A DNA stretch of 64,000 nucleotides. It comes from an uncultured Alphaproteobacteria bacterium (lineage in GTDB: Bacteria > Pseudomonadota > Alphaproteobacteria > HIMB59 > GCA-002718135). Within the stretch, counting starts at the first letter, position 1. Each line of letters starts with the position of its first letter. Positions 3,415 through 57,148 of this stretch are shown here, piece by piece. The translations under genes were made by a program, and so were the position numbers. The notes under the pieces were generated by a model. The model was given only the letters and a program-made list of their open reading frames with translations. It did not search any database and had not been told where the DNA came from. The stretch lies in NCBI GenBank assembly GCA_902576125.1, contig CACGUF010000004.1, forward strand, positions 363 through 64,362. Reading direction: 5' to 3'.

Positions 3415-4053
3415 ATGTTCAATATTAATATTTATAAGAAAATTTTGAAAGAAATAGAGGGTTTTGGGAAAAAAACGCAGATTGTGGCCGTTTCTAAAAA
3501 CCACCCCAAAACTTCTGTAGAATCAGCCCTTAGCTATGGGGTTAGAATATTTGGGGAAAATAGGGTTCAAGAAGCAAAAGCAAAGTTTGATGATCTTAAG
3601 GAATCATACAAAAACATAGAGCTTCATCTTACTGGACCATTGCAAACAAACAAAGTTAAGGAGGCGATCAGGCTTTTTGATGTTTTTCATACTCTTGATA
3701 GAGAAAAACTAGCAAGAGAGTTTGTAAAAAATGGAGAGCTCTATAATAAAAAATTTTTTATTCAAGTTAACACAGGCAGGGAAAAGAATAAGAGCGGGAT
3801 TTATATTGAGGACTTAAATCAATTTGTAAATTATTGCACAAACGACCTATCCCTTAATATTGTTGGCTTAATGTGCATTCCTCCAGTTAACGACAAGCCA
3901 AAAGAACATTTTTCAATTTTATCAAATGAAGCTAAAAAAAATAATCTTTCTAAACTGAGTATGGGCATGAGCTCTGATTATACCGAAGCAATAGAACTAA
4001 ATGCAACATATATTCGTATTGGTACATCATTATTTGGTAAAAGATTAAAATGA
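3415..4053 (+). CDS. yggS: YggS/PLPBP-family pyridoxal-phosphate homeostasis protein
   Basis: VAVSKNHP...GVRIFGENRVQEAKAKF...LHLTGPLQTNKVK...MGMSSDYTEAIE..ATYIRIGTSLFG fits the COG0325 pattern and length. Confidence 0.9.
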   Translation: MFNINIYKKILKEIEGFGKKTQIVAVSKNHPKTSVESALSYGVRIFGENRVQEAKAKFDDLKESYKNIELHLTGPLQTNKVKEAIRLFDVFHTLDREKLAREFVKNGELYNKKFFIQVNTGREKNKSGIYIEDLNQFVNYCTNDLSLNIVGLMCIPPVNDKPKEHFSILSNEAKKNNLSKLSMGMSSDYTEAIELNATYIRIGTSLFGKRLK

Positions 4054-4676
4054 AAACCACATTAGAAATATTTTCAACAGAAAAATTAAGAAATTTTTTT
4101 TCAAACCTCGAAGATTTTTTTCATATCAATATTATAGATATTGAAGAGTTAGGTAATTTTTATGATTCCAATTTTTTAAAATTGATATTCTTAGATAAGG
4201 AAAGTATTATTTCAAAAAAAATTGAAAAAAAATTATTTGAGAATGAAAATATAATTTTTGTTTGTAAAGATTTTTCTGTTTTTCAAAAATTTTCTTTAAA
4301 TCAAAAAAATGTTTTAATTTCTCCTGTATCAATAAATAAATTAATAGATTTTATTAATAATTTTATTAATACAAAAAAACATCACTTTATGAATATTGAG
4401 TTAAAAAATCATACTATTACTAACCCCAAAACAAATGAAAAGATTTATCTAACTGAAGCTGAAAATTATATTCTTCTAAAGCTATTTAATGAAAAAAATG
4501 TTAAAAAAAAATTACTTGAGAGAGATGCCCTGCAAATAAAGCAAGAGCTAAACACATCCTCAATGGAAAGTCATTTAAACAGAATTAGGAAAAAATTGAA
4601 AAAAATTAGATCACATTTTACAATTTCAAGCAAAGAAAAATACGTTTACTTAGAAACAATTAATCAAGATAAATAG
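4050..4676 (+). CDS. Atypical OmpR/PhoB-like protein: degenerate receiver-like N-terminus plus winged-helix C-terminus
   Basis: The C-terminal IYLTEAENYILLKLFNEKNVKKKLLERDALQIKQELNTSSMESHLNRIRKKLKK follows the Trans_reg_C pattern (LT..E..LL..L...V..R..L...........HI..LRKKL). The N-terminus has receiver-like strand spacing (LKLIFLD, IIFVCKD, ISPVSINKL) but no N-terminal acidic pair and no K-P motif. Its start overlaps the yggS stop as ATGA. Confidence 0.45.
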   Translation: MKTTLEIFSTEKLRNFFSNLEDFFHINIIDIEELGNFYDSNFLKLIFLDKESIISKKIEKKLFENENIIFVCKDFSVFQKFSLNQKNVLISPVSINKLIDFINNFINTKKHHFMNIELKNHTITNPKTNEKIYLTEAENYILLKLFNEKNVKKKLLERDALQIKQELNTSSMESHLNRIRKKLKKIRSHFTISSKEKYVYLETINQDK

Positions 4677-5262
4677 GCACAAAAGAAAATAAATCATCAT
4701 CAAGAATGCTGTTATAATTATGTTCATTAAAACTTATTGAAATAATTTCATTTTCAGACTCCGCAGTAATTTTTCTTAGTATTATAGGTTTGTTTTCAAA
4801 AAATATTCTTAAATTTGTTTTAGTTGAATTTATTGAAATAATTTTTTCAAAAACAATTTCTTCACTTTTCTTTTTAGGGGTTAATTTTGAAAAATAATTT
4901 TTATCTAAAAAAATATCATAAAATATGCCCACAATATTTTTCTGAGTAGAAAAAAATTCCTCCTCTTTAAGTTCATGATTTATATATACGCCTTTATTTT
5001 TACTTAATATTAGTGATCTATTAGGCAAAAAATAATCCAGTCTTATTTTGTTATCTTTTATATATATCCGACCTTCTTCTAATGAGGTTCCATTTGATTG
5101 AATAAATTTTGAGGAAAAATAATTTAAATTATTAACATATTTATCTATTTTTGATCCAACATCATCCCCTGCTAGATTTTTTGAAAAAAAAATTACAACA
5201 GACAGTATTGAAAAAGCTGTTAAATTAATTAGTTTTTTTAAGAACTTGCCTCTTGCCTGCAT
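4660..5262 (-). CDS. lolA: LolA-like outer-membrane lipoprotein carrier
   Basis: It lies immediately downstream of ftsK, the classic ftsK-lolA synteny. ATG at 5262 gives a signal peptide MQARGKFLKKLINLTAFSILSVVIFFSKNLAG. The size is right and the sequence looks beta-rich. The start is uncertain (the track start at 5307 lies inside ftsK). Confidence 0.55.
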   Translation of the reverse strand: MQARGKFLKKLINLTAFSILSVVIFFSKNLAGDDVGSKIDKYVNNLNYFSSKFIQSNGTSLEEGRIYIKDNKIRLDYFLPNRSLILSKNKGVYINHELKEEEFFSTQKNIVGIFYDIFLDKNYFSKLTPKKKSEEIVFEKIISINSTKTNLRIFFENKPIILRKITAESENEIISISFNEHNYNSILDDDLFSFVPIYLD

Positions 5263-50005: not shown

Positions 50006-52570
50006 GTGAAAGAAGATGATAGCAACTTAGTAGCGATACTAGGACCTACTAATACAGGAAAAACTTACTTGGCATTTGAAAGACTATTGTCATATAAATC
50101 AGGAATTTTTGGATTTCCTCTTCGTCTGTTAGCTCGTGAAAATTACGACAAGGCTGTAAAAAAAATTGGTATTAATAATGTTGCTTTAATTACAGGAGAA
50201 GAAAAATTTGTTCCAAATGAAGCTAAATATTTTTTTTGTACTGTAGAATCTATTCCCAAAAAACTAAATGTGGAATGTGTAGTAATTGATGAAATTCAAT
50301 TAGCATCAGATTATGAAAGAGGGCATATATTTACTGAACATCTTTTAAATACAAGGGGAGAATTTGAAACAATTTTTTTAGGCTCTTTAACAATAAAATT
50401 ATTATTATTAAAAATTTTTCCTGATATAAAAATTGAGCTGAGAGAAAGATTTTCTAAACTCAGTTTTAATTCTAATAGAAGTTTTTCAAAACTTAAACCT
50501 CGATCAGCAATAATTGGATTTAATATTAACAATGTTTATGAGATTGCTGAAAATATAAGAACACACAAAGGAGGAGCAGCAGTTGTACTTGGATCTCTAA
50601 GCCCCAGAACACGAAATGCACAAGTTGAAATATATGAAGAAAAAAAAGTTGATTACCTAGTTGCCACGGATGCAATTGGCATGGGTCTTAATTTAAATAT
50701 CGATCACATAGCTTTTTCTTCAATCGAAAAATACGATGGAAGGTTTAAAAGAAATTTGTATCCTAGTGAAATTGGTCAAATTGCTGGAAGAGCAGGTAGA
50801 TATGAAAATAATGGCACGTTTTCATTATTAAATAATGCAGGTGAACTAGACATAAAAACTATTAGAGATATTGAAGAAAGTAATTTTTACTCAATTAACA
50901 AAATCTATTGGAGAAATAGCTCTCTTGATTTTTCAAGCATTGATAATTTTCTTGGAAGTTTGAAAGAATTTCCTGTTCATAATTATTTTATTCATAAAAA
51001 AAATGCGGCTGATGAATTAAATTTTAGATACTTAATTGAAGATCAAAATATAAAAAAATTAATAACACATAAAGACAGAATTAAATTATTGTGGGATGTT
51101 TGTAGGATTCCAGATTTTCAAAAGTTGTTTAATGACTCTTATCTTCAGTTTCTTAAAACAATTTTTTTACTTTTAATCAAAAATCAAAAAATACCTAAAT
51201 TATGGCTTGAAAAAAATATTTTAGGACTCCAGAAATTTAATGGTGGAATAGAAGAGTTATCTATAAAAATTTCTCAAGTAAGGACATGGACATATATTTC
51301 AAATCATCAAAACTGGATTAATAATGAAAAATATTGGCAAGAAATTACCAGAAGAATTGAAAATGATTTATCTGACAATCTTCATGAAGGTCTGACTAAT
51401 AGATTTGTTGATACTAATTCAAAATATTTCATAAAATCTAATAAAAAAGATCTAAATCAAGATCTGGCAGTAATTGATGATAAAATTATAAAAATTAACA
51501 AAAAAGAATATGGCTCACTTCAAAATTTTGATTTAAAATTAAGTAAAGATGCAATTTCTCATTCTCTTTTTTCTCTAACTCATGTAAAAAAATTAGTTAG
51601 ATTAATGATTGAAGAAAAAATAAATAATTTTTTAAATGCTCCAAATGAAGCAATAAGTTTTGGCAATATTAGTGAAATTGATTTCAATAAAAATGTAAAA
51701 ATTTATTGGGGGGACGATATTGTTGGATATCTAAGCAAAGGGTCAAGTATTTCTTCGCCAATTGCAGATGCTTTAAATACTGAATTCATTAGTAGTGAAA
51801 ATAGATTATTAATTGCAGCAAAGCTTCAAAAGTGGATAGATGAATTAATAAAAGTATTGTTGTGGCCTGTAAAAGAGCCTAATGATGAAAATGAGTCAGC
51901 AAATATAAGAGCGATAAAATTTAATGTTTTTGAAAATTTTGGAACACTACCCGTAGATCAATTTAGCACCTTTATTAAAAATATATCTTTAGAAGAAAAA
52001 AATATAATATCGAAATTAGGTATTCGTGTTGGTGCGAAATACTTTTTTGTACCTAATTTCTTAAAAAAAGCACCATTGGAGTTATCTGCAATTCTGTGGT
52101 GTGTTTTTATTGAACATAAATTCGAAGGAGCAATTCCACTACCAAAAGATGGAAGAGTATCTTTTGAAATTAAAAATGAAATGAAAAAAGAATATTGGCT
52201 TGCTATAGGCTACATAAAGCTTAATAATTTTGCATTAAGAGTAGATGTTTTTGAAAGAATTTTTTTCTTAGCTAGGCAAAAAATTAAAAATGGACCTTTT
52301 ATAGACTCTTCAGATTTAATGAATCCTGTTGGCTGTGATAGAAATCAACTGCGAGAAATACTTAAATTTTGTGGATTTAGTGTATTAAAACTAAATAATG
52401 ATAGAGATTTATATTATAGTGAGCCAAAAAAATATCCAAAAAAATCAACAACAGTTAAAGAAAAAAAAATAAATATTAAAAAAAATAACAAAATAACCAA
52501 AGTTTCAAATAAAAGTAAAAAAGAAGCAGACCCAAATTCTCCTTTTGCAGTTTTGGAAAAACTACTTTAA
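50006..52570 (+). CDS. SUV3-like superfamily-2 helicase with long C-terminal extension
   Basis: GTG start 5 nt after the acnA stop. Walker A LGPTNTGKTYLAFERL, VIDEIQL, LVATDAIGMGLNL, QIAGRAGR, and a Lys-rich tail. The motif set matches alphaproteobacterial homologs of mitochondrial SUV3 as I remember them. Confidence 0.65.
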   Translation: MKEDDSNLVAILGPTNTGKTYLAFERLLSYKSGIFGFPLRLLARENYDKAVKKIGINNVALITGEEKFVPNEAKYFFCTVESIPKKLNVECVVIDEIQLASDYERGHIFTEHLLNTRGEFETIFLGSLTIKLLLLKIFPDIKIELRERFSKLSFNSNRSFSKLKPRSAIIGFNINNVYEIAENIRTHKGGAAVVLGSLSPRTRNAQVEIYEEKKVDYLVATDAIGMGLNLNIDHIAFSSIEKYDGRFKRNLYPSEIGQIAGRAGRYENNGTFSLLNNAGELDIKTIRDIEESNFYSINKIYWRNSSLDFSSIDNFLGSLKEFPVHNYFIHKKNAADELNFRYLIEDQNIKKLITHKDRIKLLWDVCRIPDFQKLFNDSYLQFLKTIFLLLIKNQKIPKLWLEKNILGLQKFNGGIEELSIKISQVRTWTYISNHQNWINNEKYWQEITRRIENDLSDNLHEGLTNRFVDTNSKYFIKSNKKDLNQDLAVIDDKIIKINKKEYGSLQNFDLKLSKDAISHSLFSLTHVKKLVRLMIEEKINNFLNAPNEAISFGNISEIDFNKNVKIYWGDDIVGYLSKGSSISSPIADALNTEFISSENRLLIAAKLQKWIDELIKVLLWPVKEPNDENESANIRAIKFNVFENFGTLPVDQFSTFIKNISLEEKNIISKLGIRVGAKYFFVPNFLKKAPLELSAILWCVFIEHKFEGAIPLPKDGRVSFEIKNEMKKEYWLAIGYIKLNNFALRVDVFERIFFLARQKIKNGPFIDSSDLMNPVGCDRNQLREILKFCGFSVLKLNNDRDLYYSEPKKYPKKSTTVKEKKINIKKNNKITKVSNKSKKEADPNSPFAVLEKLL

Positions 52571-52605
52571 AGAAATTTAAAAATATAAAATAATAAGGTA
52601 TAAAA

Positions 52606-53058
52606 TTGTTAGAATCTCTAAAAAATATATTTTCAAATAAAAACAATCAGATTCAAGAAGATGATAATAATGATATTAATATTCTCACAGGGTTGTTGAT
52701 AGAAGCAGCTAATACTGATGGCAATGTTTCTCAGGATGAGCTAAGCAAAATTTCTTCTAGTCTGATAAATGTTTTTAAAGAAAATCAAGAAGACGTCGAC
52801 AAAGCTCTATCCAAAGCGTTTGAAAATAAAGATAATTCTAGGTCATTATTTTTTTATACTTCTAAATTAAATAAATCTTTTTCTCATGAAAAGAAAATAT
52901 TATTATTAGAGGTATTATGGGAAGTTATTTTATCCGATAATGAAATTCATGATTTTGAGTCAAACCTTTTAAGGAGATTGGCTGGATTATTATACGTTTC
53001 AGATATTGAGTGCGGAAATGCAAAAAAAAGAGCAAGTAATAAGTTAAATAAATTATGA
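52606..53058 (+). CDS. TerB-family (tellurite-resistance TerB-like, COG4103-type) protein
   Basis: TTG start. [20 protein letters not shown]...[35 protein letters not shown] fits the two-helix-pair TerB-like pattern. Confidence 0.6.
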
Positions 53059-53387
53059 CATATGTTGTTGATGAAAACTGTATAAAATGCAAGCACATGG
53101 ACTGTGTTGATGTGTGTCCAGTAGATTGCTTTTATGAAGGTGAAAATATGTTAGTAATCCACCCTGATGAATGTATTGATTGTGGAGTTTGTGAACCTGA
53201 ATGTCCCGTAGATGCAATTCATTCAGATACAGAAGAGGGAATGGAAAAGTGGGCAGAAATTAATCGTAAATATTCTGAATTGTGGCCCGTTATAAGTGAA
53301 AAAAAAGAACCGCCAGTTGATGCTAAAGAATGGGAAGGTGTTGAGAACAAATATAAAAATCACTTTAGTGAAAAAGCAGGAGGTTAA
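53055..53387 (+). CDS. fdxA: Ferredoxin FdxA (7Fe type)
   Basis: [54 protein letters not shown]. Confidence 0.95.
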
Positions 53388-53389
53388 AT

Positions 53390-53890
53390 ATGGTAAAAAA
53401 GAATTCTCAATTTAAGGAAGGTGAAATTGTTGTTTATCCAAAACATGGTGTTGGTGAAGTTATAAGAATTGAAACAATGGAAATAGCAAACATCAAAACA
53501 AATTTTTATGTTGTTAAAATGGAGCAGTCAAAACTAATAATTAGGGTTCCAACTGAAAAACTGGAACAAGTTGGTTTAAGAAGAATTTCTTCAAAAAAAA
53601 TCATTGAAGAAGTTTTCAATATTTTAAAACTAAGACCAAAAATAAGAAGAATTATGTGGAGTAGAAGAGCACAGGAGTATGATGCTAAAATTTTTTCAGG
53701 AGATCCTATAAAAATTGCTGAAGTTGTAAGAGATCTTTTTAGAAAAACTAGTCAAGCAGAACAATCTTATAGTGAGAGACAAATGTTTCAGGTAGCAATT
53801 GAGAGACTTGCAAGGGAAGTAGCAGCTGTAGAAAAAACAGATTATTTTCAATCAACTGAAAAAATTGAATCAATTTTAAGAAATAAGTAG
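53390..53890 (+). CDS. carD: CarD-family (CdnL) RNA-polymerase-binding transcription factor
   Basis: FKEGEIVVYPKHGVGEVIRIE...YVVKM......I.VP, plus a C-terminal helical domain; 166 aa. Confidence 0.9.
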   Translation: MVKKNSQFKEGEIVVYPKHGVGEVIRIETMEIANIKTNFYVVKMEQSKLIIRVPTEKLEQVGLRRISSKKIIEEVFNILKLRPKIRRIMWSRRAQEYDAKIFSGDPIKIAEVVRDLFRKTSQAEQSYSERQMFQVAIERLAREVAAVEKTDYFQSTEKIESILRNK

Positions 53891-54703
53891 TTGGAAAATT
53901 CTAGTAACTTTTCAGAATTAGTAGATGCAAACAAAGTTTGGGCAATAGGTTCTTTACATTCAGGCTTAGACTCATTTAATTCAATTAAAAACTATATCTT
54001 ATCTAATTTTGAATTAGGAGATAAATTAATATTTTTAGGCAATGTAATAGGCTTTGGAAATAAATCAAAAGAGATTGTAAATGAAGTTTTAAAATTAAGA
54101 TTTAAACTTATGGCTAAACATAAACTTCAAAATAATGACATAGTTTTTTTAAGAGGAGCACAAGAAGAAATGTTTAGTAAACTACTTCAATTGCATATTG
54201 CACCTAATCCATTAGAAATTTTAGATTGGGTTTTTAGTCATGGGGTTGATCAGACATTAATATCATACAGATTTGATCCTGATGAATTTAGAAAAATTGC
54301 TACACAAGGTACTATTCACATAAATAAATTAACTACAAAATTAAATAATGAAATATTATCAAGCCCTGGGCATAAAGAATTTTTTTCAAATTTAAAGCAC
54401 GCAGCATATACAGATACAAAAGAGGTGCTATTTGTAAATCGAGGGGTTGATATATCAAGACCTTTATCAGCACAAAATGATTGCTTTTGGTGGGGCTATC
54501 AAAATTTTTCACAAATTAATAAGCCGTATTTTTCATTCAAAAGAATAGTGAGAGGTTATCAATCAAACTCTCATAATGATATCGAAAACTCTAAATCAAT
54601 GGTTTTGTGTACACTTTTTAAGCAACCACTAGAAAGTAAAAAAATTATAGCAGGAATTTTTGCTAAAAATGGAGATATTTTAGAATTATTTGAATCAAAA
54701 TGA
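53891..54703 (+). CDS. Metallophosphoesterase (PPP/ApaH-like) homolog with all metal-ligand motifs apparently substituted (candidate pseudoenzyme)
   Basis: TTG start directly after the carD stop. The motif order is preserved but degenerate: GSLHSG for GDxHG, FLGNVIGFG for GDxxDRG, LRGAQEE for GNHE, FVNRGVD for xHAGx, and VRGYQSNS for xGHTP. DWVFSHGVDQTLISY matches the W..GG..T..sY segment. Confidence 0.45.
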   Translation: MENSSNFSELVDANKVWAIGSLHSGLDSFNSIKNYILSNFELGDKLIFLGNVIGFGNKSKEIVNEVLKLRFKLMAKHKLQNNDIVFLRGAQEEMFSKLLQLHIAPNPLEILDWVFSHGVDQTLISYRFDPDEFRKIATQGTIHINKLTTKLNNEILSSPGHKEFFSNLKHAAYTDTKEVLFVNRGVDISRPLSAQNDCFWWGYQNFSQINKPYFSFKRIVRGYQSNSHNDIENSKSMVLCTLFKQPLESKKIIAGIFAKNGDILELFESK

Positions 54704-54736
54704 TCCAAATTGAAGTTTGTGCGTATAAATTAATAT

Positions 54737-55600
54737 ATGACTTTAAGAGCACTAATTTCTAATAACTTAGTTGAGTTTTCAAAGAAATCTAAAATTCTTG
54801 ATAAAGAAGAAGAGTTCCATCACATTGAAAATTGGAGAAATAAAAGGGAATCAAAGTCTCTGCAGGTTATTTTAAATTCTTATCTAAGATTAGCCGTTTC
54901 ATATGCAAGAAAATATAAAAGCTATGGTTTGCCACTTGATGATTTAATTCATGAGGGCGTTCTAGGGATAATGCATGCTTTAGAAAAGTTTGATACATCT
55001 AAAGGCTTTAGATTATCAACATATGCATCTTGGTGGATTAGAGCATCAATACAGGATTATATATTAAAAAATTGGTCAGTTGTAAAAACTGGCTCTACAG
55101 CTTCTCAAAAAGCTCTTTTCTTTAACTTAAGAAAAATTAAACAACAAATATCAGAGGCTTCCTCTGATTATATGGGTCAAAGAGAAATTAATAAAGTATC
55201 TGAAATGCTAAATGTGAAAAGTTTTGAGGTTCAAAATATGGAATCAAGATTAAGTGGTGGTGATGTATTCCTCAATCAAAAGATTGATAATGACTCAGAA
55301 AATGATCTTATGAGTTTATTAGAGGATGATAGGGCTAATCCTGAAGAGTCATTTCAAAGTTTTAATGATGGCAAAATTAAAAAAGATTTTTTAGATAAAG
55401 CTATTTTATCATTAAATGAACGTGAAAGAACGATAATAAAATTAAGAAAATTAAGAGAAAAGAGCATTACACTAGATGAGTTGGGGCAAATGCTTAAAAT
55501 AAGTAAAGAAAGAGTTAGGCAAATTGAAACAAAAGCTCTAGAAAAATTAAAAACTACAATTCTTGAAATTTCTCAACAAAATAAAGAATTTTTTATTTGA
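54737..55600 (+). CDS. rpoH: Heat-shock sigma factor RpoH (sigma-32)
   Basis: DLIHEGVLGIMHALEKFD, YASWWIRASIQDYIL, the RpoH box QKALFFNLRK, and region 4.2 ISKERVRQIETKALEKL. Confidence 0.9.
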   Translation: MTLRALISNNLVEFSKKSKILDKEEEFHHIENWRNKRESKSLQVILNSYLRLAVSYARKYKSYGLPLDDLIHEGVLGIMHALEKFDTSKGFRLSTYASWWIRASIQDYILKNWSVVKTGSTASQKALFFNLRKIKQQISEASSDYMGQREINKVSEMLNVKSFEVQNMESRLSGGDVFLNQKIDNDSENDLMSLLEDDRANPEESFQSFNDGKIKKDFLDKAILSLNERERTIIKLRKLREKSITLDELGQMLKISKERVRQIETKALEKLKTTILEISQQNKEFFI

Positions 55601-55631
55601 TACTTACTCCTCTATAAAATAAAGTTATCAT

Positions 55632-56165
55632 ATGTTTCGTCTATTTTTTCTAATGTTAATATTTTTAGTTAAACCCTCTATTCTGTCTGCACAAGGATAT
55701 GATGTTTTTGGAATAGGAATATATGATGTTAAGTTTGATGGATCATCTTCTAACTATGCCACAGATTTTAGATACGAAAGACGTTTCGCCAATACATTAG
55801 TTGATATTGGACCAGAAGATGATAATTTTTTTTATTTAAAACCATTTGTTGGTATTGAAACAACAACAGACTCTGCTTTTTATATTTTGGGAGGTATTTA
55901 TTTAGAAGATAATCTAGGAAAACTTATGATAGGAAATGAAAATGAGTGGAATTTTACACCTAGTTTTGGCTTTGGATATTATGATGATGGAAATGGAAAA
56001 AAATTAGGCAATAAACTAGAGTTTAGAACTACTTTTGAAATAAGCTACCAATTAAAAAATAAGAATAGGATTGGTTTGTCACTTGGCCATATATCTAATG
56101 CTAACATTGGTAACAAAAATCCCGGAGTAGAAATAATAAGTTTTTCTTATCAAAAACCCTTTTAA
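55632..56165 (+). CDS. Acyloxyacyl hydrolase / lipid A deacylase PagL-like outer-membrane protein
   Basis: Signal peptide, small beta-barrel size, C-terminal LSLGHISNANIGNKNPGVEIISFSYQKPF (HxSN catalytic context, terminal Phe). Confidence 0.55.
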   Translation: MFRLFFLMLIFLVKPSILSAQGYDVFGIGIYDVKFDGSSSNYATDFRYERRFANTLVDIGPEDDNFFYLKPFVGIETTTDSAFYILGGIYLEDNLGKLMIGNENEWNFTPSFGFGYYDDGNGKKLGNKLEFRTTFEISYQLKNKNRIGLSLGHISNANIGNKNPGVEIISFSYQKPF

Positions 56166-57148
56166 TTTATTAATACATTTTTTTCTTTTACAAAATTTAA
56201 AAATATTTTTTCTAGACTATCAAAATTATTAGTTTTCATATTATTGTGAATATCAACTTTAAATTTTTTTCCATTTTCTATACCAAAAAATATATTTAAA
56301 AGTGGACTTAACAACCTATAAATAGAATCGGTTCCAATTTTTGGTTTTATATATTCAAAATATTGAATAATTGTCTCTTCAGAAACTTTATAAGAAGATG
56401 ATGTATTAAAAAATAAATTATCAACTTTTTTTAAACAAAAAGGGTTATTTTGTATTAATCTTCCAACCATAATCCCGTCAAAAATTTTTGACAAATCAAA
56501 AGCTTTTTCAATACTATCTATTCCACCATTAAGTATAAAAGTTATATGCGGATATCTTTTTTTAACCCTTTTAACAAAATCATAATTTAATGGAGGAATG
56601 TTTCTGTTATCTTTAGGGCTGAAACCATTTAATATTGCATTTCTTGCATGCACATATACTATTCTAATTCCACTTTTAATAATTTCATCAACAAACTCTT
56701 CAAAAAATTCATAATTAAAATTTTTTCCAATTCCAATTCTGCATTTAATTGATACTTCAATATTTTTATTAATTTGCATAGAGCTTAAACAATTCTTTAC
56801 TAAATTTTTGTCTTGCATCAAGCACGCTCCAAAACTTCCTTTTTGCACTGCTTTACTAGGGCAACCAACATTTAAATTTATTTCATCATAATCTAATTCA
56901 TAGGCAATATTAGCGCACTTTTTTAAATCATTATAATCAGACCCTCCTACCTGCAACGCAATTGGATTTTTTTTGTCATTTGCTATTATTAAATTAGAAT
57001 TTCTAGAATGGATTAAAGTTTTTGTTGCTATCATTTCTGAAAATAAAAAAGCTTTTTTAGATAATATTCTATATAAATTTCTAGCGTAAGGGGTTGTACA
57101 TCCCATCATAGGGGCAACACAAAATTTACGTTCTAAATTATTTTTCAT
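56162..57148 (-). CDS. dusA: tRNA-dihydrouridine synthase A
   Basis: FCVAPMMGCTTPYARNLYRILS, EINLNVGCPS, VSIKCRIG and VHARNAIL. Confidence 0.9.
   Translation of the reverse strand: MKNNLERKFCVAPMMGCTTPYARNLYRILSKKAFLFSEMIATKTLIHSRNSNLIIANDKKNPIALQVGGSDYNDLKKCANIAYELDYDEINLNVGCPSKAVQKGSFGACLMQDKNLVKNCLSSMQINKNIEVSIKCRIGIGKNFNYEFFEEFVDEIIKSGIRIVYVHARNAILNGFSPKDNRNIPPLNYDFVKRVKKRYPHITFILNGGIDSIEKAFDLSKIFDGIMVGRLIQNNPFCLKKVDNLFFNTSSSYKVSEETIIQYFEYIKPKIGTDSIYRLLSPLLNIFFGIENGKKFKVDIHNNMKTNNFDSLEKIFLNFVKEKNVLIN

What the first reader, a model, noticed from the sequence alone, without database searches (positions are those of the whole stretch)
53891..54703. Apparent pseudo-phosphoesterase (ApaH/PPP-like fold, metal ligands replaced) sandwiched between carD and rpoH
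Seen: a 270-aa ORF starts (TTG) on the base after the carD stop and ends 33 nt before rpoH. It belongs to a co-directional run: TerB-like, fdxA, carD, this ORF, rpoH. Its motif order follows calcineurin-like/PPP phosphoesterases, but each catalytic motif is substituted:
- GDxHG becomes GSLHSG.
- GDxxDRG becomes GNVIGFG.
- GNHE becomes GAQEE.
- HAG becomes NRG.
- GHTP becomes GYQSN.

Established: those residues ligate the di-metal centre. ApaH, the Ap4A hydrolase, belongs to this superfamily, and Ap4A rises under heat and oxidative stress.

Inference: this is a catalytically dead family member retained in a streamlined genome, next to two global transcription factors. That suggests a binding or regulatory role, for example a dinucleotide-polyphosphate sensor or a sigma-32/CarD partner. 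It would be an undescribed regulatory module.
Basis: partly seen in the sequence, partly recalled or inferred. Interest (0 to 1): 0.65.

Follow-up and report, generated by a model that had tools for sequence, protein, structure and literature searches.

The report
Dead phosphatase-fold partner gene of CarD
The gene between carD and rpoH encodes a well-conserved protein with a phosphatase fold whose catalytic metal-binding residues are gone; it founds a large, unnamed alphaproteobacterial family almost always encoded right after the transcription factor CarD, so it probably works with CarD rather than as an enzyme.

Summary
Window 53891-54703 (+) is a 270-aa ORF. It starts at a TTG on the base after the carD stop and ends 33 nt before rpoH. 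All five quoted degenerate motifs are present.

Homology to PPP-type metallophosphoesterases holds:
- Single-sequence searches find almost nothing.
- A diverse family profile hits ApaH-like, ApaH, Rhizobiales-like and lambda phosphatases colinearly.
- A confident AlphaFold2 model (pLDDT 90) matches only PPP phosphatases.

The ligand loss is ancestral to a whole family, not a SAR11 relic. In 294 sequences the motif-I Asp and the GNHE Asn are never present. The GNHE His is Gln in 277.

The gene is under purifying selection (median dN/dS 0.18) and occurs in at least 370 SAR11-type species genomes and in Rhodospirillales.

The constant neighbour is carD, immediately upstream in 137 of 142 evaluable loci. 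rpoH is secondary (72/78 SAR11-type, 22/59 others). In SAR11-type genomes the start is a conserved TTG 0-11 nt after the carD stop, which suggests translational coupling.

Best reading, inferred: a non-catalytic partner of CdnL-type CarD, analogous to Myxococcus CarD-CarG. No Pfam or NCBIfam family and no paper describes it. No interaction, binding or activity was tested.

The parts
53891..54703 (+). Gene X: 270-aa pseudo-PPP (metallophosphoesterase-fold) protein with a TTG start
   Evidence: The ORF is. The AF2 model has pLDDT 90.1 and pTM 0.89. Foldseek hits are all PPP phosphatases. Median dN/dS is 0.18.
53888..53893 (+). carD stop (TAG) directly abutting the X start (TTG); a probable translational-coupling junction
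   Evidence: The sequence is. In 80 SAR11-type loci the first possible X start is TTG in 79, and it lies 0-11 nt after the carD stop (4 nt in 52 loci, 0 nt in 16).
53948..53962 (+). Vestige of motif I (GDxHG -> G20-S-L-H-S24): the metal-ligand Asp is replaced and the His is kept
   Evidence: hhalign against E. coli PrpA and ApaH and HMMER against 2qjc, 9t9n and 5vjv. Asp is absent at this position in 294/294 family sequences. His is kept in 254/294.
54038..54058 (+). Vestige of motif II (GDxxDRG -> G50-N-V-I-G-F-G56)
   Evidence: Alignments are. The bridging Asp position is Asn in 257/294 and Asp in 17. The second Asp position is Gly in 293/294. The Arg position is Leu/Phe in SAR11-type sequences. 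GDVIG->GNVIG is the engineered inactive mutant of an ALPH enzyme (PMC8220851).
54155..54169 (+). Vestige of motif III (GNHE -> G89-A-Q-E-E93)
   Evidence: hhalign pairs PrpA VRGNHEQM with LRGAQEEM. Asn is absent in 294/294. His is replaced by Gln in 277/294. Glu92 is invariant.
54158..54388 (+). All-helical insert (residues ~90-166) between motifs III and IV; it carries family-specific invariant residues (A104, P107, W113, G118, Y126, G140, G160-H161)
   Evidence: DSSP on the AF2 model and the conservation table. The APNPLEILDW segment aligns with ApaH APDADELLNW. III-to-IV spacing is 94 residues, against 56 in ApaH and 64 in PrpA.
54437..54445 (+). Vestige of motif IV (HAG -> N183-R-G185)
   Evidence: HMMER pairs family 'VsaGl' with 2qjc 'AHAGL' and 9t9n 'VHAGI'. 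The position is Asn in all 107 SAR11-type sequences and His in 111/187 others.
54458..54496 (+). Family signature RPLSAQNDCFWWG (residues 190-202): Q195, D197, W200 and W201 are at least 92% conserved
   Evidence: Conservation in a non-redundant set of 186 sequences. The segment aligns with 'RPVDRQYED' of 2qjc.
54551..54559 (+). Vestige of motif V (GH -> R221-G-Y223)
   Evidence: HMMER pairs 'vvrGyd' with 2qjc 'VVFGHD', and hhalign pairs it with ApaH 'IAFGHW'. The His position is Tyr in all SAR11-type sequences and Phe/Tyr in most others, with His in only 11.
53390..53890 (+). carD (CdnL-type RNA-polymerase-binding factor), the constant upstream neighbour
   Evidence: Pfam CarD_TRCF_RID + CarD_C. 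PDB best hit is M. xanthus CdnL 2lwj at E=1e-25, followed by mycobacterial CarD. It is adjacent upstream of X in 76/76 SAR11-type and 61/66 other loci.
54737..55600 (+). rpoH-like sigma factor, a frequent but not constant downstream neighbour
   Evidence: Pfam Sigma70_r2 + r4, 287 aa. It is adjacent downstream in 72/78 SAR11-type and 22/59 other loci. Metatranscriptome contigs match it exactly.
52606..53387 (+). terB and fdxA, conserved upstream members of the same co-directional cluster
   Evidence: Pfam. The order terB-fdxA-carD-X is seen in SAR11-type, Magnetospirillum and many metagenome loci.

Best explanation
Shown:
- Gene X encodes a folded, selectively maintained protein of the PPP (ApaH/PrpA/Rhizobiales-like) metallophosphoesterase fold.
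- The residues that bind the two catalytic metals and the phosphate have been replaced. The replacement is shared by a whole alphaproteobacterial family, so it is ancestral.
- The gene sits immediately downstream of carD on the same strand in about 96% of evaluable loci, across lineages whose X proteins share only about 35% identity.
- In SAR11-type genomes it starts with a conserved weak TTG codon 0-11 nt after the carD stop.

Inferred:
- X is made with CarD from one transcript, by translational coupling and at a lower level than CarD.
- X acts without catalysis, as a binding partner or modulator of CdnL-type CarD or of the CarD-RNA polymerase initiation complex. It would use the enlarged, highly conserved helical insert and the remodelled former active-site face as the interaction surface.
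- This would be a functional analogue, not a homologue, of the Myxococcus pair CarD-CarG. There carG is translationally coupled to carD and encodes a protease look-alike with its catalytic Glu replaced. CarG is obligatory for CarD function and for several alternative sigma factors.
- The frequent rpoH gene downstream may reflect a link to sigma-32-dependent transcription.
For: Fold and homology:
- AF2 model with pLDDT 90.1 and pTM 0.89.
- The top 50 Foldseek PDB hits are all PPP or metallophosphoesterases: 2qjc at 2.7e-9, lambda-PP at 1.8e-8, then RLPH2, PP5 and PP2A.
- Family profile against PDB: 2qjc at 2.5e-5 in three colinear segments, ApaH at 1.2e-3, RLPH2 at 4e-3.
- hhalign registers against E. 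coli PrpA and ApaH.

Dead site, from 294 sequences:
- Motif-I Asp present in 0.
- GNHE Asn present in 0.
- GNHE His present in 1.
- Second motif-II Asp present in 0.
- Bridging Asp present in 17.
- The single change GDVIG->GNVIG abolishes activity in an ALPH enzyme (PMC8220851). The window protein has GNVIG.

Functional gene:
- Median dN/dS is 0.18, and 0.01-0.03 for the closest pairs.
- Found in 370 species genomes and in at least 3933 proteins at E<=1e-10.

Linkage:
- carD is adjacent upstream in 76/76 plus 61/66 loci (gene orders).
- TTG start in 79/80 SAR11-type loci, 0-11 nt after the carD stop.

Precedent: CarD-CarG. The same review states that CdnL has no known partner other than RNAP (PMC8156234).
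Against: - No physical interaction was tested or modelled.
- Conserved adjacency can reflect shared regulation only. fdxA and terB are just as conserved in the cluster and have no known tie to CarD.
- Outside SAR11 the carD-X gap is larger (median about 109 nt by alignment ends), so coupling is not universal.
- Five of 66 non-SAR11 loci lack adjacent carD. One of them (L084) keeps rpoH instead.
- Metatranscriptome contigs cover fdxA, carD and rpoH but not X, so co-transcription is not shown.
- Several polar residues around the former site are highly conserved (R88, Q91, E92, E93, H161, Q195, D197, R221). A remodelled catalytic or ligand site therefore cannot be excluded.
- Model alphaproteobacteria in which CdnL was studied (Caulobacter, Rhodobacter) were not found among the named carriers, and the CdnL papers checked report no such partner.
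Confidence: 0.45

Rival explanations
1. X is still an enzyme. The classical two-metal site is gone, but a remodelled site catalyses a hydrolytic or transfer reaction on an unknown substrate. That site could be one metal or no metal, and would be built from the conserved H23, N51, R88, Q91, E92, E93, H161, Q195, D197 and R221.
For: - These polar residues are 78-100% conserved across a non-redundant set of 186 sequences.
- The former active-site positions are more conserved than average, 0.72 against 0.55 mean top-residue frequency.
- Many non-SAR11 members keep His at motifs I and IV (254/294 and 111/187) and Asn at the bridging position.
Against: - No member has the motif-I Asp or the GNHE Asn, and only 1/294 has the GNHE His.
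- D->N at motif II alone kills a related ALPH enzyme (PMC8220851).
- SAR11-type proteins additionally lose the motif-IV and motif-V His and the motif-II Arg, yet remain under equally strong selection.
Confidence: 0.17
2. X is a small-molecule sensor. The vestigial pocket binds, without hydrolysing, a dinucleoside polyphosphate, a cap-like 5' end or an alarmone. It passes that signal to the transcription machinery.
For: - The closest sequence and structure relatives are ApaH and ApaH-like enzymes, which act on Ap4A and on 5'-5' polyphosphate caps (PMC8220851).
- The ApaH-type helical-insert motif AP...E(L/I)L(N/D)W is retained.
- The pocket positions are strongly conserved.
- Genomic linkage is to a transcription-initiation factor.
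Against: - In ApaH-type enzymes the polyphosphate is held largely through the metals and the motif-II Arg. Both are lost in the SAR11-type protein.
- IV-to-V spacing is PrpA-like, not ApaH-like (38 against 105 residues), so descent from ApaH itself is not established.
- Nothing about binding was tested here.
Confidence: 0.13
3. X is primarily a regulator of sigma-32 (RpoH), for example an anti-sigma-like or stabilising factor. Its link to carD would be only positional.
For: - rpoH follows X in 72/78 SAR11-type and 22/59 other loci.
- In one lineage (L084) X travels with rpoH and without carD.
- In Magnetospirillum the next gene is the heat-shock gene htpG, on the opposite strand.
Against: - rpoH is absent downstream in 37/59 non-SAR11 loci and in 6 SAR11-type genomes that keep an intact X.
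- The replacements downstream are heterogeneous.
- carD adjacency is far more constant.
- The start-codon and stop junction couples X to carD, not to rpoH.
Confidence: 0.1
4. X has a non-catalytic role unrelated to transcription, for example a scaffold in another pathway. It would remain next to carD only because an ancient terB-fdxA-carD-X operon has been inherited intact.
For: - terB and fdxA are equally persistent in the cluster without a known functional tie to CarD.
- SAR11 genomes pack unrelated genes tightly. Gaps of 0-33 nt run along the whole 50006-56165 array.
Against: - Adjacency and orientation hold in 137/142 loci across orders with about 35% protein identity. That is stronger than typical neutral synteny.
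- A conserved weak start codon abuts the carD stop.
Confidence: 0.15

Closest known systems
ApaH (symmetrical Ap4A hydrolase) and eukaryotic ApaH-like phosphatases (ALPH; e.g. T. brucei 2qjc)
   Same: - Best sequence-profile and structural matches: 2qjc at E=2.5e-5 by profile and 2.7e-9 by Foldseek; ApaH 9t9n at 1.2e-3; NCBIfam ApaH NF001204 is the only weak family hit.
- Same order of motifs I-VI.
- I-to-II spacing of 30 against 29 residues.
- Second Asp of motif II is neutral, as in ALPHs.
- Shared insert motif AP...E(L/I)L(N/D)W and a C-terminal LD(T/S)G.(G)G block in non-SAR11 members.
   Different: - All metal ligands except one His are replaced.
- NF001204 scores 16 bits against a cut-off of 176.
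- The III-to-IV insert is larger (94 against 56 residues), and ApaH's large IV-to-V insert is missing (38 against 105).
- No activity is expected.
Bacterial PPP phosphatases PrpA/PrpB and lambda phosphatase; Rhizobiales-like phosphatases (RLPH2, 5vjv)
   Same: - Same fold: lambda-PP at 1.8e-8 and RLPH2 at 3.3e-8 with the highest TM among the top three hits.
- hhalign register with PrpA through motifs I-III.
- IV-to-V spacing is similar to PrpA (38 against 43).
- An insert lies between GNHE and HAG, as described for Rhilphs and alphaproteobacterial PPPs (PMC535813).
   Different: - The catalytic motifs are degenerate.
- Pfam Metallophos is not reached by the window protein, and only 2/32 diverse members give sub-threshold hits.
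- The genomic context, next to carD, is distinctive.
Myxococcus xanthus CarD-CarG regulatory pair
   Same: Works-like analogy. [quoted passage not shown] That gene's product looks like a metalloenzyme but has a catalytic residue replaced and no activity. It does not bind DNA, forms a tight complex with CarD, and is needed for alternative (ECF) sigma factor action (PMC8156234). Here there is a carD-X stop/start junction, a dead metallo-enzyme fold, and an alternative sigma factor gene often next door.
   Different: - No homology. CarG is a metzincin-like zinc protein with a His/Cys-rich motif, which X lacks (the X sequence has only two Cys).
- CarG partners the long HMGA-type CarD of myxobacteria, whereas the window's CarD is the short CdnL type. 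CdnL is reported to bind only RNAP.
- The X-CarD interaction is not demonstrated.
Known inactive members of the calcineurin-like fold (Vps29; B-subunits of eukaryotic DNA polymerases alpha/delta/epsilon)
   Same: These are precedents, from general knowledge and not tested here, that this fold can lose its metal site and persist as a protein-interaction scaffold.
   Different: They are eukaryotic or archaeal lineages of a different sub-family (Mre11/Vps29-like rather than PPP). They were not among the top structural matches.

Membership tests
PPP / calcineurin-like metallophosphoesterase superfamily | Alpha/beta sandwich metallophosphoesterase fold | tested here: met
   The AF2 model has pLDDT 90.1. 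The top 50 Foldseek PDB hits are all PPP or metallophosphoesterases, at probability 1.00 and TM 0.47-0.60.
PPP / calcineurin-like metallophosphoesterase superfamily | Motif I GDxHG (Asp and His metal ligands) | tested here: not met
   The window has G-S-L-H-S. Asp is present in 0/294 family sequences and His is kept in 254/294.
PPP / calcineurin-like metallophosphoesterase superfamily | Motif II GDxxDRG (bridging Asp, phosphate-binding Arg) | tested here: not met
   The window has G-N-V-I-G-F-G. The bridging Asp is present in 17/294, the second Asp in 0/294, and the Arg position is Leu/Phe in SAR11-type sequences.
PPP / calcineurin-like metallophosphoesterase superfamily | Motif III GNHE (Asn ligand, His general acid) | tested here: not met
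   The window has G-A-Q-E. Asn is present in 0/294 and His in 1/294. Glu is invariant.
PPP / calcineurin-like metallophosphoesterase superfamily | Motifs IV (HAG/HGG) and V (GH) His ligands | tested here: not met
   The window has N-R-G and G-Y. The motif-IV His is present in 0/107 SAR11-type and 111/187 other sequences. The motif-V His is present in 11/294.
PPP / calcineurin-like metallophosphoesterase superfamily | Passes the curated Pfam model PF00149 (Metallophos) | tested here: not met
   The window protein hits no Pfam family at E<=1. Only 2 of 32 diverse relatives give weak hits, the best at E=2.8e-4.
PPP / calcineurin-like metallophosphoesterase superfamily | Metal-dependent phosphoesterase activity | not testable with these tools
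   This needs recombinant protein assays and metal analysis.
ApaH (NCBIfam NF001204, symmetrical bis(5'-nucleosyl)-tetraphosphatase) | Score above the equivalog cut-off over the full length | tested here: not met
   16 bits against a cut-off of 176, with only residues 16-114 matched. 7/32 relatives give weak hits, the best at E=5.5e-4.
ApaH-like phosphatases (ALPH) | Six motifs, with GDxx(neutral)KG at motif II and (F/Y)GH ... (I/L)D(T/S)G at the C-terminus (PMC8220851) | tested here: not met
   The second Asp is neutral (Gly), but the bridging Asp is Asn and the Lys position is Phe. Motif V is R-G-Y. Motif VI is LFKQ in the window and LD(G/S)G in non-SAR11 members.
CarG (myxobacterial CarD partner) | His/Cys-rich two-zinc motif HQx2Hx2Ex2HCx4CxMx16Cx2C (PMC8156234) | tested here: not met
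   The motif is absent from the 270-aa sequence, which has two Cys in all. The fold is PPP, not metzincin. The resemblance is functional analogy only.
CarG (myxobacterial CarD partner) | Forms a complex with the CarD-family protein encoded immediately upstream | not testable with these tools
   Only genomic linkage and the stop/start junction were shown.

The most novel reading that the evidence does not exclude
In SAR11, Rhodospirillales and related Alphaproteobacteria, CdnL-type CarD does not act alone. It would work as a two-protein unit with a dead ApaH/PPP-derived subunit, convergent with myxobacterial CarD-CarG. That subunit would tune open-complex stabilisation by RNA polymerase. It could do so in response to cap-like dinucleoside polyphosphates, or in coordination with the heat-shock sigma factor encoded next door.
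Probability: 0.22. Interest if true: 0.8.

Novelty: new variant of a known kind. Interest (0 to 1): 0.6.

Why it matters
CarD/CdnL is a global, often essential, RNA-polymerase-binding factor. Alphaproteobacterial promoters are reported to depend on it unusually heavily (PMC7703639, abstract seen). The CdnL type is reported to bind only RNA polymerase (PMC8156234).

A conserved, translationally coupled, catalytically dead phosphatase-fold protein encoded next to carD gives a concrete, testable candidate for such a partner. The carriers include SAR11-type marine bacteria, found here in at least 370 species-level genomes, and genetically tractable Magnetospirillum.

It would also be a bacterial example of a whole PPP sub-family turned pseudoenzyme.

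There is a practical consequence for annotation. The family has no Pfam or NCBIfam model. IMG and UniRef label it 'serine/threonine protein phosphatase (1)', which is probably wrong as a statement of activity.

Tried and rejected
1. Single-sequence and close-relative profile searches gave nothing useful: Pfam, PDB by phmmer, A1 profile against PDB, A1 against Pfam. Homology became visible only with a diverse profile (A2).
It was repeated with A4.
3. Long family members (P0145, P0215, P0173, P0214) were checked for informative domain fusions. They carry only low-complexity inserts or extensions.
4. Marine metatranscriptome contigs were laid on 52500-56200. They cover fdxA, carD and rpoH but not X, and none spans a junction, so there is no evidence for or against co-transcription.
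5. The promoter/terminator scan found fewer sigma-70-like sites than shuffles and no + strand terminator between carD, X and rpoH. This is uninformative.
6. Rfam found no RNA family in 52400-56300.
7. Synonymous-codon entropy along X was measured to find an embedded rpoH promoter. The profile is flat, 0.49-0.73, with no clear signal.
8. Genes downstream of X where rpoH is absent are heterogeneous, so there is no alternative constant partner.
10. Literature searches for a described carD-downstream phosphatase-like gene, or for bacterial PPP pseudophosphatases, found nothing relevant.
11. A mirror-tree or co-evolution test was considered and not run. It is too confounded by shared phylogeny and by the high conservation of CarD.
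Full report
**1. The observation**

The window contains a 270-aa ORF at 53891-54703 (+). Its TTG start (53891-53893) follows the TAG stop of the upstream gene (53888-53890) with no gap. Its stop lies 33 nt before the next ATG at 54737.

Pfam identifies the neighbours as TerB (52606-53058), a 7Fe-type ferredoxin (53055-53387), CarD (53390-53890), an RpoH-sized sigma-70 r2/r4 protein (54737-55600) and a PagL-like protein (55632-56165). A Suv3-like DEXQ helicase lies upstream and dusA lies convergent downstream.

The upstream gene is a genuine CdnL-type CarD: its best PDB match is M. xanthus CdnL 2lwj at E=1e-25, followed by mycobacterial CarD.

**2. A real, selected gene that founds a large family**

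- The indexed protein database returns 1148 homologues. The best 120 are at least 74% identical, from Pelagibacterales-type assemblies, and carry no Pfam domain. Names are 'hypothetical protein' or IMG's 'serine/threonine protein phosphatase 1'.
- A scan of one genome per species finds the gene in 370 genomes, all SAR11/HIMB59-type Alphaproteobacteria.
- An exhaustive HMM search of 1.84 billion cluster representatives finds 437 representatives at E<=1e-3, many of them full-length 260-290-aa proteins from GC-rich organisms.
- A profile of those finds at least 3933 proteins at E<=1e-10, including cultured Telmatospirillum siberiense (WP_101250894.1), Magnetospirillum sp. UT-4 (WP_173978419.1) and Virgifigura deserti (WP_119462743.1).
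- Every named carrier is alphaproteobacterial apart from one probably mis-binned MAG.
- Among SAR11-type genes, dN/dS has a median of 0.18 over 650 unsaturated pairs, and 0.01-0.03 for the closest pairs.

**3. Homology to PPP phosphatases**

Searches with the single sequence, or with a profile of close relatives, give nothing in Pfam or the PDB. The exception is one weak NCBIfam ApaH hit: 16 bits against a cut-off of 176, E=0.0057, residues 16-114.

A profile of 32 diverse members (A2, 24-77% identity to the window protein) gives colinear PDB hits:

| PDB entry | Protein | E-value |
|---|---|---|
| 2qjc | T. brucei ApaH-like protein | 2.5e-5, three colinear segments |
| 9t9n | ApaH | 1.2e-3 |
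| 5vjv | Rhizobiales-like phosphatase 2 | 4e-3 |
| 1g5b | lambda phosphatase | 0.27 |

AlphaFold2 with a 34-sequence alignment gives a confident model, with pLDDT 90.1 and pTM 0.89. Its 50 best Foldseek matches in the PDB are all PPP or metallophosphoesterases: 2qjc at 2.7e-9, lambda-PP at 1.8e-8, then RLPH2, PP5, PP2A, PP1 and PnkP. Probability is 1.00 and TM is 0.47-0.60. The moderate TM values fit a core fold plus an enlarged all-helical insert (residues ~90-166).

**4. The ligand substitutions**

hhalign of the family profile against E. coli PrpA pairs IWLSGDIHG with IWAIGSLHS, VGDVIDRG with LGNVIGFG, and VRGNHEQM with LRGAQEEM. ApaH gives the same register for motifs I-II and also pairs the insert segments APDADELLNW and APNPLEILDW. 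HMMER pairs 'AHAGL'/'VHAGI' with family 'VsaGl', and 'VVFGHD' with 'vvrGyd'. ApaH 'IAFGH...LDTGCCWGG' pairs with 'vvRGy...tLDgGcGrGG'.

Across 294 family sequences (107 SAR11-type, 187 others):

| Canonical position | Found in the family |
|---|---|
| Motif-I Asp | Never Asp (Ala, Ser or Pro) |
| Motif-I His | His in 254 |
| Bridging Asp, motif II | Asn in 257, Asp in 17 |
| Second Asp, motif II | Gly in 293 |
| GNHE Asn | Never Asn |
| GNHE His | Gln in 277, His in 1 |
| GNHE Glu | Invariant Glu |
| Motif-IV His | Asn in all SAR11-type; His in 111/187 others |
| Motif-V His | Tyr/Phe in most; His in 11 |

So the loss of the two-metal site is ancestral to the family, and the SAR11-type proteins are its most degenerate members.

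For scale, the published catalytically dead control of an ApaH-like decapping enzyme was made by the single change GDVIG->GNVIG (PMC8220851). The window protein carries GNVIG naturally.

The former active-site positions are more conserved than the protein average (0.72 against 0.55). A family signature has appeared around them and in the insert: R88-G-x-Q91-E92-E93; A104, P107, W113, G118, Y126, G140, G160-H161; Q195-x-D197-x-x-W200-W201; R221-G222.

Motif spacing is 30, 39, 94 and 38 residues for I-II, II-III, III-IV and IV-V. ApaH has 29, 28, 56 and 105, and PrpA has 29, 26, 64 and 43. The protein therefore belongs to the bacterial PPP group, but direct descent from ApaH is not established.

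**5. Genomic linkage**

| Neighbour of X | SAR11-type loci | Other alphaproteobacterial loci |
|---|---|---|
| carD immediately upstream, same strand | 76/76 | 61/66 |
| rpoH immediately downstream | 72/78 | 22/59 |

All counts are of evaluable loci. X identity to the window protein is about 35% in the non-SAR11 relatives; the 80 metagenome loci are 47-75% identical to the Magnetospirillum query.

- In the 80 SAR11-type loci the order helicase-terB-fdxA-carD-X-rpoH-pagL is almost invariant.
- In three of the five non-SAR11 exceptions, carD lies one gene further upstream.
- Magnetospirillum has terB-fdxA-carD-X followed by a convergent htpG.
- One lineage (L084) has X-rpoH without carD.
- Where rpoH is missing, the downstream genes are heterogeneous.
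- In 80 SAR11-type loci the first possible start of X is TTG in 79, and it lies 0-11 nt after the carD stop (4 nt in 52 loci, 0 nt in 16). In other lineages the starts are mostly ATG or GTG and the gaps are longer.

A conserved weak start codon abutting the upstream stop is what translational coupling looks like. It would give X at a lower level than CarD. That is an inference.

**6. What could not be settled**

- Metatranscriptome contigs cover fdxA, carD and rpoH, including exact matches to this strain's rpoH. They do not cover X or any junction, so co-transcription is unproven.
- Promoter/terminator, Rfam and synonymous-constraint scans were uninformative.
- No informative domain fusions exist among the long homologues.
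- The window encodes no intact PPP paralogue.

**7. Interpretation**

The shown facts are a folded, selected PPP-fold protein; no canonical catalytic centre anywhere in the family; and a near-universal position directly after carD with a coupling-type junction in SAR11.

The best-supported mechanism is that X is a non-catalytic partner or modulator of CdnL-type CarD, or of the CarD-RNAP initiation complex. The precedent is Myxococcus carD. It is translationally coupled to carG, and CarG resembles a metzincin protease with its catalytic Glu replaced by Gln. CarG has no protease activity and binds no DNA. It forms a tight complex with CarD and is required for CarD function and for many ECF sigma factors. 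The same review notes that CdnL is known to bind only RNAP (PMC8156234). The CdnL papers checked do not mention a downstream partner gene.

I put this reading at about 0.45. The rivals are:
- A remodelled enzyme (0.17).
- A nucleotide or cap sensor (0.13).
- A sigma-32-specific regulator (0.10).
- Inherited synteny with an unrelated role (0.15).

**8. Novelty and verdict**

The fold and the idea of pseudo-phosphatases are known. Dead calcineurin-like domains exist in eukaryotes, for example Vps29 and DNA polymerase B-subunits; that is general knowledge and was not tested here. What appears undescribed is an entire alphaproteobacterial PPP sub-family that has lost its metal site and is genomically tied to carD.

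No Pfam or NCBIfam model covers it and no paper was found. Existing labels such as 'serine/threonine protein phosphatase 1' are probably misleading about activity.

Its emphasis on SAR11 streamlining and on rpoH needs correcting towards an old family and towards carD. The regulatory role remains a hypothesis with clear tests.

Noticed in passing
window 53390-54703: carD and X are in the same reading frame here, separated only by one TAG codon. Among 80 SAR11-type loci, 20 share the frame and 16 have a 0-nt gap, so the in-frame arrangement is not conserved. Stop-codon read-through is therefore unlikely to be the point.
   Followed up: partly
L010, L011, L012, L016, L060, L080 (X at about 4001-4810 in most): Six SAR11-type genomes keep an intact X after carD but have no rpoH between X and the pagL/dusA genes. 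rpoH must be elsewhere or absent in these lineages.
   Followed up: partly
window 52606-53390: terB and fdxA overlap by 4 nt, and fdxA ends 2 nt before carD. The cluster terB-fdxA-carD is conserved from SAR11 to Magnetospirillum. The reason a TerB-domain protein and a ferredoxin are kept with carD is unexplained.
   Followed up: no
window 50006-52570: An 854-aa protein has an N-terminal Suv3-type DEXQ helicase domain and a long uncharacterised C-terminal half. It is conserved upstream of terB in most SAR11-type loci.
   Followed up: no
window 54738-55261: Marine metatranscriptome contigs match this strain's rpoH exactly (54738-54930, 54784-54997, 55108-55261), while none covers X. One contig begins one base after the rpoH ATG. 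This is compatible with a separate rpoH promoter inside the 3' end of X, or with low X mRNA.
   Followed up: partly
P0145 (439 aa), P0215 (449 aa): These are family members with long low-complexity, probably disordered additions. P0145 has an insert of about 170 aa between the helical insert and motif IV. P0215 has an extension of about 150 aa at the C-terminus.
   Followed up: partly
P0397 (MGE5546683.1): This family member is labelled as coming from a Solirubrobacterales (Actinomycetota) MAG but is 71% identical to the Magnetospirillum protein. It is probably a mis-binned alphaproteobacterial contig rather than a transfer.
   Followed up: no
window 55632-56165: A PagL-like lipid A 3-O-deacylase homologue lies directly after rpoH. 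It is conserved in that position in nearly all SAR11-type loci.
   Followed up: no
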